DNA of 49,850 nucleotides from Minisyncoccota bacterium (lineage in GTDB: Bacteria; Patescibacteriota; Minisyncoccia; Phycocordibacterales; UBA9973), in the NCBI GenBank assembly GCA_035491955.1, contig DATJJU010000010.1, positions 1 through 49,850 of the forward strand. The letters run 5' to 3'. The translations under genes and the position numbers were made by a program. Positions within the stretch are counted from its first letter, which is position 1. Each line of letters begins with the position of its first letter. Below the pieces are notes generated by a model. It ran no database searches. It had not been told where the DNA came from and saw only the letters and a program-made list of their open reading frames with translations. Below, in pieces: positions 43,443 through 45,243 of this stretch.

Positions 43443-45243
43443 TTAAGAAGAGTTTGATCCTAGCTCAGGATGAACGCTGGCGGCGTGGATAAGGCATGCA
43501 AGTCGAACGAACCTTGTCTTTCTGATCGATAAAGTAGAGCTGAGTAGCAATACAAAGCAAAGCGATATTTTGAAGAAGGACGCTGGTTAGTGGCAGACGA
43601 GGTAGTAATACATAGGTACGTACCCCCGAGTCGTGAATAACGCACCGAAAGGTGTGCTAATACACGATAGTCCTTCCGAGGTAAAGTTTTTCGCTCGGGG
43701 AACGGCCTGTGAGATATCAGCTAGATGGTAAGGTAACGGCTTACCATGGCTATGACGTCTAGGGGCGCTGAGAGGCGGACCCCCACCGATGGGACTGAGA
43801 CACGGCCCATACACCTACGGGTGGCTGCAGTCAAGAACTTTCCACAATGGACGAAAGTCTGATGGAGCGACGCCGCGTGATTGATGAAGTGGTTCGCCAC
43901 GTAAAGATCTTTTATGAGGGAAGAAGTATATTGACGGTACCTCATGAATAAGGGGCTCCTAACTCTGTGCCAGCAGGAGCGGTAATACAGAGGCCCCGAG
44001 CGTTATCCGGAATCATTGGGCGTAAAGGGTGTGTAGGTGGCGTTGTTAGTCGTTTGTGAAAGCCCGGGGCTCAACCTCGGAGACGCGAACGAAACGGCAA
44101 TGCTTGAGTATGTGAGAGGTAAGCGGAACTCAAGGTGTAGGGGTGAAATCCGTTGATATCTTGGGGAACACCAAAAGCGAAGGCAGCTTACTGGCACATT
44201 ACTGACACTGAAACACGAAAGCGTGGGTAGCGAATGGGATTAGATACCCCAGTAGTCCACGCCCTAAACGATGACAACTAGCTTTTCGGAGTATCGACCC
44301 TCTGAGAGGCGAAGCTAACGCGTTAAGTTGTCCACCTGGGAAGTACGGCCGCAAGGCTAAAACTCAAAGGAATAGACGGGGACTCGCACAAGCGGTGGAT
44401 TATGTGGTTTAATTCGTAGGTAAACGAAGAACCTTACCCAGATTTGAAGCGTACGGGAAAGCCTAAGAAACTAGGCCCTCGCAAGACCGGTACGCAGGTG
44501 ATGCATGGCCGTCGTCAGCTCGTGGTTTGAACTGTTCCCTTAAGTGGGCTAACGAGCGCAACCCTCGTTGTCTGTTACAAGTGTCAGGCAAGACTGCCCA
44601 GCCCAAAGACTATATCCTCAGAGGTTCTGTGGTAGAAATGAAGTATTTATATTTTGTTTCTACCACTGAGCTTCTGATGATACCGGGTGTTCAGTGGTAA
44701 AAGTAATGTATTTATATGTTGCTTTTACCACCGAGCACCTGGGCTTGGATACTCTGCGGAAGAAATGAAGTATTTATATTTTGTTTCTTCCACTGAGTGT
44801 CTAAGTAAGCGGGTCTTCTGTGGAGTGAAATAGTATTTATATTATTTCACTCCACTGAGGACCTGTCCGATGTAGTTTTCGGGCTGGGAGGAAGGAGAGG
44901 ATGACGCCAGGTCAGCATGTCCCTTTGATATCTGGGGCCACACACATAATACAATGGTTATTACAATGGGATGCAATGGAGCGATCCGGAGCCAACCCTA
45001 AAAGATAGCCCTAGTTCGGATAGCAGTCTGCAACTCGACTGCTTGAAGCTGGAATCGCTAGTAATCGCAGGTCAGCCAAACTGCGGTGAATACGTTCTCG
45101 AGTCTTGTACTCACCGCCCGTCAATTCAAGGGAGCCGGTAGTACCCGAAGGCTCTCCATAAGGAGGGACTACGGTAAGATCGGTGACAGGGAATAAGTCG
45201 TAACAAGGCACGGCTAGCGGAAGCTGGTCGTGGATTAACTCAA
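43443..45243 (+). rRNA. rrs: 16S rRNA with a ~280-nt helix-40 expansion; 3' end approximate
   Basis: AGAGTTTGATCC, CCTACGGG, GTGCCAGCAG, ATTAGATACCC, AAACTCAAAGGAAT, AAGTCGTAACAAGG; flanking stem about 43403-43418/45392-45407. Confidence 0.98.
44605..44880 (+). repeat. Four tandem ~63-nt hairpin repeats inserted in 16S helix 40
   Basis: GTATTTATAT apices at 44643, 44708, 44770, 44833; shared TCWGYGG...CCACYGAG. Confidence 0.9.

What the first reader, a model, noticed from the sequence alone, without database searches (positions are those of the whole stretch)
44598..44888. 16S helix 40 expanded into a junction of four repeated hairpins
Seen: between GACTGCC and GGAGGAAGG, normally a ~15-nt hairpin, a basal stem (CCCAGCCC.AAGACTATATC/GATGTAGTTTT.GGGCTGGG) opens into four ~28-bp hairpins at 44618-44677, 44683-44742, 44743-44806 and 44809-44866. 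All have a GUA-UUUA-UAU apex and a single mismatch at the same position in UC[U/A]G[U/C]GG/CCAC[U/C]GAG (U-U, A-C, U-U, U-U). The remaining stem sequence has diverged while staying paired. No ORF or group I core is visible, and adjacent helix 39 is deleted. Inference: tandem duplication followed by selection on structure. It could be a large retained expansion segment on the 30S head with four equivalent protein-binding sites, or an RNase III-excised intervening sequence that yields a fragmented 16S and small RNAs (rnc is in the window).
Basis: partly seen in the sequence, partly recalled or inferred. Interest (0 to 1): 0.8.

Follow-up and report, generated by a model that had tools for sequence, protein, structure and literature searches.

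The report
Four-hairpin expansion of 16S helix 40
The only 16S rRNA gene of this tiny-genome bacterium carries, at the tip of helix 40, four old copies of a 60-base hairpin kept in shape by selection, and the same hairpin also caps two 23S rRNA helices in sister species, but whether it stays in the ribosome is still untested.

Summary
Rfam places 281 extra bases in the loop of 16S helix 40. They fold (-182 kcal/mol, z -18.7) into a 19-bp basal stem and four 26-28-bp hairpins at the stated coordinates.

Helix 39 is shortened, not deleted. The shared mismatch is only partly conserved: 17 of 38 related units have it.

In the genus, helix 40 holds 0 to 4 such units. Across 38 units, 22 of 28 pairs show double compensatory changes. 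In 25 helix-40 elements, 37 of 38 long hairpins end in A(UUUA)U.

The rRNA strand folds 63 kcal/mol better than its complement, so selection acts on the RNA. All full-length model hits in 51 genomes lie in rRNA genes: 16S h40 and two 23S helix tips. None is dispersed.

Helix-40 extensions are common in the order, and this scan has noted them before on other genomes. This is therefore a new variant of the known ORF-less insertions in CPR rRNA genes.

Retained or excised is not settled. Contigs of one RNA library cover the junction and two hairpins at flank-like depth, a weak hint of retention. A canonical RNase III gene lies 3 kb upstream.

The parts
43442..45245 (+). 16S rRNA gene, 1804 nt. 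The search found only one copy of its 44380-44600 stretch in the genome.
   Evidence: Rfam RF00177, 1339.7 bits, model 1-1533. One match of the 44380-44600 flank in G000.
44568..44591 (+). Shortened helix 39: a 7-bp stem with a 10-nt loop. About 15 model positions of the tip are missing.
   Evidence: Rfam alignment. The same short form is seen in all 20 other-genus genomes read.
44597..44616 (+). 5' strand of the extended h40 basal stem: 8 bp, an A.C 1x1 loop, then 11 bp.
   Evidence: (I5). The sequence is nearly constant across the genus.
44618..44677 (+). Hairpin module 1: 27 bp, U.U at 44628/44667, apex GUA(UUUA)UAU.
   Evidence: R1 model 71.3 bits.
44683..44742 (+). Hairpin module 2: 27 bp, A.C at 44693/44732.
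   Evidence: R1 72.4 bits. Nearest unit is G008 unit 2, at 85%.
44743..44806 (+). Hairpin module 3: 28 bp, U.U at 44755/44794 and C.A at 44757/44792. Nearest relative is module 1 of the same genome (81%).
   Evidence: R1 66.1 bits.
44809..44866 (+). Hairpin module 4: 26 bp, U.U at 44819/44856.
   Evidence: R1 76.7 bits. Nearest unit is the G005 unit, at 81%.
44869..44888 (+). 3' strand of the h40 basal stem.
9476..9505 (+). 23S hairpin of normal length capped by the same GUAUUUAUAU apex. I take it to be helix 25; that helix number is recalled, not tested.
   Evidence: Motif hit at 9486. Rfam LSU alignment, model about 571-600. Sequence.
12809..12846 (+). Hairpin just after the 5S gene, with the variant apex AGA(UUUA)UCU.
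   Evidence: Partial R1 hit, 28.3 bits, model 13-50..
39786..40478 (+). Context only: a canonical RNase III gene (catalytic domain plus dsRBD, 230 aa), about 3 kb upstream of the 16S gene.
   Evidence: Pfam PF14622, PF00636 and PF00035..

Best explanation
This is a genus-specific, modular expansion of 16S rRNA helix 40.

Shown:
- An order-wide extension of h40 serves as a basal stem. In this genome it carries four paralogous copies of a roughly 60-nt hairpin module.
- The module has an A(UUUA)U tetraloop apex, usually GUAUUUAUAU. A GUGG/CCAC box lies 13-17 bp below the loop, often followed by a U.U 1x1 loop.
- The module is kept in shape by selection acting on the rRNA-sense transcript.
- The number of modules changes quickly between species (0 to 4) through duplication, loss and reshuffling.
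- The same module also sits at the tips of two 23S helices in sister species. It is therefore a portable, rRNA-restricted cap for peripheral helices, not a dispersed genomic repeat.

Inferred:
- The element most likely stays in the mature 16S rRNA as an expansion segment. It would project from the 30S head on the uS7/platform side.
- Its repeated loops would offer several equivalent contact sites for a trans-acting partner that is not yet identified.
For: Structure and position.

Covariation over 38 units from 17 genomes:
- 94.9% of cells are paired against 75.5% in shuffles (0 of 500 shuffles reached it).
- 22 of 28 pairs carry changes on both sides.
- Controls with the partner slid by 1-3 columns give 40-54% paired.

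Apex: in MFE folds of 25 h40 elements, 37 of 38 terminal hairpins of 20 bp or more end in A(UUUA)U, and 32 of them in GUA(UUUA)UAU. Mean column identity of the units is only 64%.

RNA-level and strand-specific:
- 22 of 129 pairs are G.U.
- The sense strand folds at -182 kcal/mol, the antisense at -118.8.
- R1 scores are 61-80 bits on the sense strand for 37 of the 38 h40 units (an irregular G004 unit scores 38.4) and 30-53 bits on the antisense.

Restricted to rRNA: in 51 genus genomes every full-length sense hit lies in 16S h40 or in 23S.
- 23S domain-I hairpin, LSU model 274-295: G071, G002, G026, G009, G013.
- H63-equivalent hairpin: G017, G007.
 The own genome has no other copy.

Old paralogues: 37 of 38 units have their nearest neighbour in another genome.

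Lineage: among 150 other genomes of the order there is one weak hit, 30.5 bits.

For retention:
- The basal extension is present in 18 of 20 other-genus genomes, together with the short h39.
- The basal stem sequence is nearly invariant in the genus.
- In run X2, on record as metatranscriptomic RNA, a 309-nt contig about 97.5% like the window runs from the 16S flank through hairpin 1 at depth 14.9.
- A second X2 contig covers 44658-44739 (the 3' part of hairpin 1 and hairpin 2) at depth 9.0. A third abuts the 3' junction at depth 14.8.
- E. coli tolerates an insertion at 1153-1162, the h39/h40 region, with a doubling time of 45.7 min against 51.5 min for the wild type of the paper's 23S table (PMC2441807, tables seen in passages).
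Against: Retention is not shown.
- All runs laid were assembled contigs. These cannot show RNA ends or local depth.
- Two other RNA runs (X10, X11) had no cover of the insert at all. Their joints carry other letters between the two sides, so they come from organisms with a short h40.
- X2 also has four contigs that leave the window at 44599-44603 and return at 44882-44886 with unknown content between. They cannot be told apart from relatives with a different insert.

Features that fit excision:
- Stems of 26-28 bp and a 19-bp basal stem are the kind of dsRNA that RNase III cuts. A canonical RNase III is encoded 3 kb upstream.
- Tsurumaki et al. 2024 suggest that short ORF-less insertions in CPR rRNA genes may be RNase III-cleaved IVS (PMC11270868, section 5).
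- According to that paper's introduction, Brown et al. 2015 found such insertions removed from transcripts.

Other weaknesses:
- No binding partner is identified.
- Copy number varies from 0 to 4 between species whose 16S flanks are 87-100% identical, so the element cannot be essential.
Confidence: 0.5

Rival explanations
1. Intervening sequence. RNase III cuts the basal stem, or each hairpin, during 16S maturation. The insert is removed without religation, leaving a 16S in two pieces held together in the 30S subunit. The excised hairpins are degraded or persist as small RNAs.
For: - The insert sits at the tip of a peripheral helix and has a long basal stem.
- Content is variable and patchy among close relatives.
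- A canonical RNase III with a dsRBD is encoded in the window.
- The literature reads short ORF-less CPR rRNA insertions this way (PMC11270868, section 5).
- The loop and the U.U/GUGG box lie at a constant spacing of about 16-17 bp, in h40 units and, flipped, in 23S hairpins. That would suit a nuclease that measures from the loop. This last point is inference.
Against: - Contigs from an RNA library cover the 5' junction and two hairpins at depths of 9-15, similar to the flanks. This is weak evidence.
- An excised spacer needs only its basal stem. Yet each of up to four internal hairpins keeps its structure and its 10-nt apex across old paralogues.
- The basal extension is constant across an order rather than sporadic.
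Confidence: 0.3
2. Functionless, self-propagating expansion. Hairpins arise and multiply at helix tips by replication slippage or template switching. They persist because a solvent-exposed tip tolerates them. The pairing reflects how they are made, not selection.
For: - Copy number ranges from 0 to 4, with reshuffled unit order, among species whose flanks are 87-100% identical.
- h40 and the two 23S sites carry many unrelated inserts across the order and the genus.
- E. coli tolerates an insertion here.
Against: - Template switching makes perfect Watson-Crick palindromes that fold equally on both strands. Here G.U pairs sit at fixed positions: G.U in 35 of 38 units at the third pair from the loop, and in 29 of 38 at columns 6/68.
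- The antisense strand folds 63 kcal/mol worse.
- The units are old paralogues. Their stems have turned over while the apex stayed the same.
Confidence: 0.13
3. Copies of a dispersed palindromic repeat (REP/MITE-like, perhaps moved by the RAYT-like HUH enzyme noted elsewhere in this genome) that landed in the rRNA gene. Earlier notes of this scan proposed this for h40 inserts in other CPR genomes.
For: - Earlier notes on other genomes (e1-795432, e1-815225, e1-1344219).
- A RAYT-like unit in this same genome (e1-812989).
These are leads only.
Against: - BLAST of the insert against the own genome finds only itself.
- The covariance model finds no full-length copy outside rRNA genes in any of 51 genus genomes.
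These are AU-rich.
Confidence: 0.03

Closest known systems
Short, ORF-less, non-intron insertion sequences in rRNA genes of CPR/Patescibacteria (Brown et al. 2015, recalled and cited through Tsurumaki; Tsurumaki et al. 2022 PMC9297842; Tsurumaki et al. 2024 PMC11270868)
   Same: - Small-genome lineage with unlinked 16S and 23S genes and several rRNA insertions.
- The insert has no ORF and no intron match.
- It lies at the top of a stem-loop, as that paper says of most insertions.
   Different: - Those papers treat such inserts as an uncharacterised remainder.
- Neither main text mentions h40: 0 occurrences of 'h40' or 'helix 40'.
- New here: a defined repeated module, its covariation, its copy-number range and its presence at three rRNA sites.
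- The papers' site maps are in supplements that I could not open.
Bacterial rRNA intervening sequences removed by RNase III (23S helix 25/45 IVS of Salmonella, Leptospira, Coxiella; 16S IVS of Helicobacter and Campylobacter)
   Same: Position at a helix tip, a long basal stem, patchy distribution, and RNase III present.
   Different: - Excision is untested here.
- Known IVS are single stems or carry an ORF. They are not arrays of one conserved hairpin.
- The site (h40) is not one of the classical IVS sites. That last statement is recalled, apart from the passage that names the classical 23S IVS sites.
Retained rRNA expansion segments (eukaryotic es9 near h39/h40, ES27L on H63; the long mycobacterial 23S helix extension)
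   Same: - Length-variable extensions of peripheral helix tips.
- The h39/h40 region and H63 are expansion sites in eukaryotes (es9 is listed next to the h39/h40 insertion in PMC2441807; ES27L on H63 is recalled).
   Different: - Retention is not shown here.
- Eukaryotic segments are not built from a repeated, sequence-defined hairpin that is shared between the two subunits.
REP/BIME and MITE-like palindromic repeats
   Same: Short palindromic units, sometimes in tandem.
   Different: - No dispersed copies.
- The fold is strand-specific, with fixed G.U pairs.

Membership tests
Group I or group II intron | Match to the intron covariance models; conserved catalytic core | tested here: not met
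   No intron family appears at gathering score in the window. None appears at E up to 10 in 44590-44895. The best hits there are generic microRNA-precursor models at 31 bits or less, against cut-offs of 45-200.
RNase III-excised intervening sequence (IVS) | Replaces the tip of a helix and is closed by a long double-stranded basal stem | tested here: met
   281 nt in the h40 loop. Basal stem of 8 + 11 bp.
RNase III-excised intervening sequence (IVS) | Absent from mature rRNA; rRNA fragmented at the site | tested here: inconclusive
   Only contigs could be laid. One RNA-library run holds the junction and two hairpins at depth 9-15. Two other RNA runs have no cover of the insert. No DNA control was possible.
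RNase III-excised intervening sequence (IVS) | Sporadic presence among close relatives | tested here: inconclusive
   The distal modules vary from 0 to 4. The basal extension, however, is present in all 25 genus genomes read and in 18 of 20 other genera.
Retained rRNA expansion segment | Extension of a peripheral helix that varies in length among relatives | tested here: met
   h40 elements measure 42-292 nt in the genus. In the order, the segment from GCGCAACCC to GGATGACGCCA measures 76-215 nt, against 354 nt in the window.
Retained rRNA expansion segment | Present in the mature rRNA of the ribosome | tested here: inconclusive
   as above. It needs raw RNA reads, long reads or a ribosome structure.
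Dispersed palindromic repeat (REP/BIME/MITE) | Many copies in intergenic DNA of the same genome | tested here: not met
   all copies lie in rRNA genes.
Structured RNA element under selection | Compensatory base changes beyond shuffled and slid controls | tested here: met
   covariation score 0.565, against 0.199 when shuffled (0 of 500 reached it) and 0.07-0.10 when slid. The caveat given by the tool applies: related sequences can exceed shuffles without any structure.

The most novel reading that the evidence does not exclude
The A(UUUA)U-capped hairpin, with its GUGG/CCAC box and U.U loop, is the recognition element of a lineage-specific trans-acting factor. That factor could be a ribosome-docking protein or a nuclease that measures from the loop. 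The element has been copied between helix tips of both rRNAs: 16S h40, a 23S domain-I hairpin and 23S H63. This genome's 30S head would then carry four equivalent sites next to the mRNA exit, in a lineage that has lost the anti-Shine-Dalgarno tail.
Probability: 0.3. Interest if true: 0.75.

Novelty: new variant of a known kind. Interest (0 to 1): 0.5.

Why it matters
Short ORF-less insertions are the unexplained remainder of the many insertions in CPR rRNA genes. This case gives that remainder a defined, testable unit.

- It is one hairpin with a fixed loop, under RNA-level selection.
- It is found only in rRNA, at three helix tips, in 0-4 copies at h40.
- If retained, it would be a bacterial expansion segment built from repeats, near the mRNA exit of a ribosome that has no anti-SD.
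- If excised, it would be a fragmented 16S with a tandem array of hairpin by-products.

Either outcome can be settled with ordinary RNA data. On the practical side, such inserts lengthen the V7 region by about 280 nt, which affects amplicon and 16S-length filters for this group.

Tried and rejected
- **Metagenome scan.** A scan for two apex motifs 45-60 nt apart returned 118 or more stretches. None of the 80 loci fetched matched model R1 at E up to 1e-5.
- **Runs X10 and X11**. No cover of the insert. Their joints across it carry 8-9 or 39 other letters between the two sides, so they come from other organisms with a short h40. This says nothing about splicing here.
- **X2 joints** at 44599-44603 to 44882-44886. 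The content between the two sides is unknown, so they are not interpretable.
- **A genome-wide taste for UUUA loops as the explanation of the apex.** In the own genome 15 of 494 tetraloop hairpins of 9 bp or more have UUUA, and 4 of those are the h40 units. It is not a general feature. The three other A-U-closed cases outside the rRNA regions lie in or beside ordinary genes or a tRNA, with no Rfam family.
- **Rfam at permissive threshold**. Only far sub-threshold microRNA-precursor-like hits, as expected for any 60-nt hairpin.
- **Neighbouring genes as candidate partners**. They are a NusB-NUDIX fusion, RNase III, an SMC-like ATPase, a 111-aa ORF with no family, DUF192, and ribonucleotide reductase. 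Nothing points to a module-binding protein.
- **Brown et al. 2015** could not be read because it is not held.
- **Literature searches** found no description of tandem hairpin modules in h40.
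Full report
**What is there.** The window is contig 10 of a 674-kb genome in 17 contigs, 96.6% complete. Rfam finds a 16S gene at 43442-45245, and an unlinked 23S at 8882-12590 followed by a 5S. The 16S alignment shows 281 nt where the model has 4. This lies in the loop of the hairpin between GACUGCC and GGAGGAAGG, which is helix 40. 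The search found only one copy of the 16S stretch 44380-44600 in the genome. This gene must therefore supply the cell's small-subunit rRNA.

**The structure.** The stretch 44590-44895 folds at -182 kcal/mol. Shuffles give -79.1 +/- 5.5, so z is -18.67, and 0 of 100 shuffles fold as well.
- basal stem of 8 bp, an A.C 1x1 loop and 11 bp (44597-44616 with 44869-44888);
- four hairpins at 44618-44677, 44683-44742, 44743-44806 and 44809-44866, with 26-28 pairs each;
- every hairpin ends in GUA(UUUA)UAU;
- U.U, A.C, U.U and U.U mismatches at the same register.

Hairpin 3 has a second mismatch, C.A. Helix 39 is not deleted: a 7-bp stem and its loop remain, and only the tip is gone. No ORF of 60 aa or more overlaps the insert. 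No Rfam family, introns included, comes near its threshold.

**Relatives.** Of 51 species genomes in the genus, 26 hold the 16S flank. I could read h40 in 25 of them; in G063 the contig ends. All 25 have an extended h40, and in most the basal stem has nearly the same sequence.

| Distal part of h40 | Genomes |
|---|---|
| Four modules | G000, G008 |
| Three modules | G002, G017, G031, G014 |
| Two modules | G022, G006, G066 (each with one small unrelated hairpin), G007, G019, G004, G062 |
| One module | G005, G020, G025, G015 |
| Two longer irregular hairpins with an AGA(UUUA)UCU apex | G065 |
| A different repeat-rich hairpin | G064, G029 |
| A plain hairpin only | G061, G011, G034, G009, G010 |

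G066 has a flank 100% identical to the window over 221 nt, yet it carries a small hairpin plus two modules. The array therefore turns over much faster than the rest of the gene.

**Selection on the RNA.** A motif search found 40 units. I aligned 38 of them, from 17 genomes, and left out the two irregular G065 units.
- RNAalifold predicts 24 pairs, and 20 of them show compensatory changes.
- With the full 28-pair structure, 94.9% of cells are paired against 75.5% in shuffles (0 of 500 shuffles reached it).
- 22 pairs carry changes on both sides. Controls slid by 1-3 columns give 40-54% paired.

Because I picked the units by their apex, I also made a census that does not depend on it. In the MFE folds of all 25 h40 elements there are 50 terminal hairpins. 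Of these, 38 have 20 bp or more. Of those 38, 37 end in A(UUUA)U, and 32 in GUA(UUUA)UAU.

It is a standard pair in the other 21. It is therefore favoured at that position but not fixed.

G.U pairs sit at fixed positions: 35 of 38 units at the third pair from the loop. In this genome 22 of 129 pairs are G.U. The complementary strand folds at only -118.8 kcal/mol, with its apexes open. The covariance model R1 scores the sense strand at 61-80 bits for 37 of the 38 h40 units, with one irregular G004 unit at 38.4 bits, and the antisense at 30-53 bits. The structure therefore belongs to the rRNA transcript, not to the DNA.

**Age of the units.** 37 of 38 units have their nearest relative in another genome. 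Only hairpin 3 of this genome is closest to a unit of the same genome, hairpin 1, at 81%. The two four-unit arrays (G000, G008) do not match unit for unit. Units 1 and 2 correspond, but units 3 and 4 have their nearest relatives elsewhere. The arrays are sets of old paralogues with occasional duplication, loss and reshuffling. They are not recent tandem copies.

**A portable, rRNA-only module.** R1 found no full-length copy outside rRNA genes in the 51 genus genomes. It did find copies in 23S:
- in the loop of the domain-I hairpin at LSU model positions 274-295 in G071, G002, G026, G009 and G013;
- in the H63-equivalent hairpin (model about 1750-1775) in G017 and G007.

The contexts were confirmed by Rfam alignment and by reading the sequence. 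G009 has no module in h40 but has one in 23S.

In this window both of those 23S hairpins are short. Even so, a 23S hairpin of normal length at about 9476-9505 carries the same GUAUUUAUAU apex; I take it to be helix 25, a number I recall rather than tested. A hairpin after the 5S gene carries AGA(UUUA)UCU.

Of 19 extended domain-I hairpins read in the genus, 15 end in A(UUUA)U. Seven of them carry a U.U loop in the context CAC-U-GAG/CUC-U-GUG. That is the h40 motif turned round, at a similar distance from the loop.

Among 150 other genomes of the order there is one weak hit, at 30.5 bits. The own genome has no dispersed copy. UUUA loops are not a general habit of this genome: 15 of 494 long tetraloop hairpins, four of which are these units.

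**Wider setting.** I read 20 genomes of other genera in the order.
- Two have a short h40.
- Nine have a hairpin about 45 nt long.
- Nine have inserts of 120-150 nt with other architectures.
- All 20 have the short h39.

Extension of h40 is therefore an order-wide trait with hypervariable tips. Earlier notes of this scan recorded h40 inserts on other CPR genomes. Several of those notes tied the inserts to dispersed palindromic repeats. I tested that link here and it is not met.

The literature knows a class of short, ORF-less, non-intron insertions in CPR rRNA genes and suggests they may be RNase III-cleaved IVS (PMC11270868, abstract and section 5). Neither that paper nor PMC9297842 mentions h40 in its main text. 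Their site maps are in supplements that I could not open. My five searches found no description of such a module.

**Retained or excised.** This is the open point. Only assembled contigs could be laid. In X2, on record as metatranscriptomic RNA:
- a 309-nt contig about 97.5% like the window runs from the 16S flank through hairpin 1, at depth 14.9;
- a second covers 44658-44739, the 3' part of hairpin 1 and hairpin 2, at depth 9.0;
- a third abuts the 3' junction at depth 14.8 and then runs on unlike the window.

Two of its substitutions in hairpin 1 turn A-U into G.U and G.U into A-U, so pairing is kept. I worked that out from tables 3 and 4 and the pairs.

Flank-like depth inside the insert speaks against quick removal. 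But contig depth is a mean over the contig, DNA carry-over was not controlled, and the organism is a relative, not this one. X10 and X11 show only other organisms with a short h40.

For excision speak the long near-perfect helices and a canonical RNase III with a dsRBD at 39786-40478.

For retention speak the order-wide conserved basal extension and the selection on every internal hairpin. The site also tolerates insertion in E. coli (PMC2441807).

h40 lies on the 30S head beside uS7, facing the platform, where RNase R docks (PMC10901742, passages). The 16S tail here lacks CCUCC, which is known for part of Parcubacteria.

**Verdict.** The reading 'repeats under structural selection' is supported and sharpened. 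The element is a new variant of a known, poorly understood class.

| Reading | My odds |
|---|---|
| Retained modular expansion segment with repeated contact loops | about 0.5 |
| RNase III-excised IVS | 0.3 |
| Functionless self-propagating expansion | 0.13 |
| Dispersed repeat | 0.03 |

Noticed in passing
window 11788-12303 (inside the 23S gene), tRNA call at 12096-12170: The 23S carries a 515-nt insertion at LSU model position about 2621-2624. It contains a predicted tRNA-Gln(UUG): Rfam 54.4 bits and ARAGORN. No group I intron model matches at gathering score. A tRNA-like gene inside an rRNA insertion is unusual.
   Followed up: partly
window about 10866-11122 (23S): A 257-nt insertion lies at LSU model position about 1955, the region of the known CPR intron sites near 1917-1952. 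It has no intron hit at gathering score. It contains a 16-bp hairpin.
   Followed up: no
window 45232-45245: The 16S 3' end reads GGAUUAACUCAAAU, with no CCUCC anti-Shine-Dalgarno. This is already published for part of Parcubacteria (PMC9297842) and has been noted several times by this scan.
   Followed up: partly
window about 43517-43582: 66 nt stand where the SSU model has 12, near model positions 75-90, the helix 6 region. This is a second, unrelated 16S insertion without the module.
   Followed up: no
L049, L050, L053, L054, L055, L057, L043 (23S domain-I hairpins of G014, G030, G061, G020, G073, G072, G013): A U.U 1x1 loop in the context CAC-U-GAG/CUC-U-GUG sits about 16-17 bp from a UUUA loop. 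It is the same duplex motif as in the h40 units but turned round. I have no explanation for it.
   Followed up: partly
L062 (G012) and L063 (G002), 23S H63: Sister species carry 380-nt and 470-nt insertions at the tip of the H63-equivalent hairpin. Their content was not examined.
   Followed up: no
window 38863-39771: A NusB domain is fused to a NUDIX domain in one 302-aa ORF, directly upstream of RNase III.
   Followed up: no
G025 contigs C15 and C24 (L013/L041, L018): This genome bin holds two different 16S fragments. One has a GUAUUUAUAU unit and the other an AGAUUUAUCU unit. This may reflect strain mixture or contamination of the bin.
   Followed up: no
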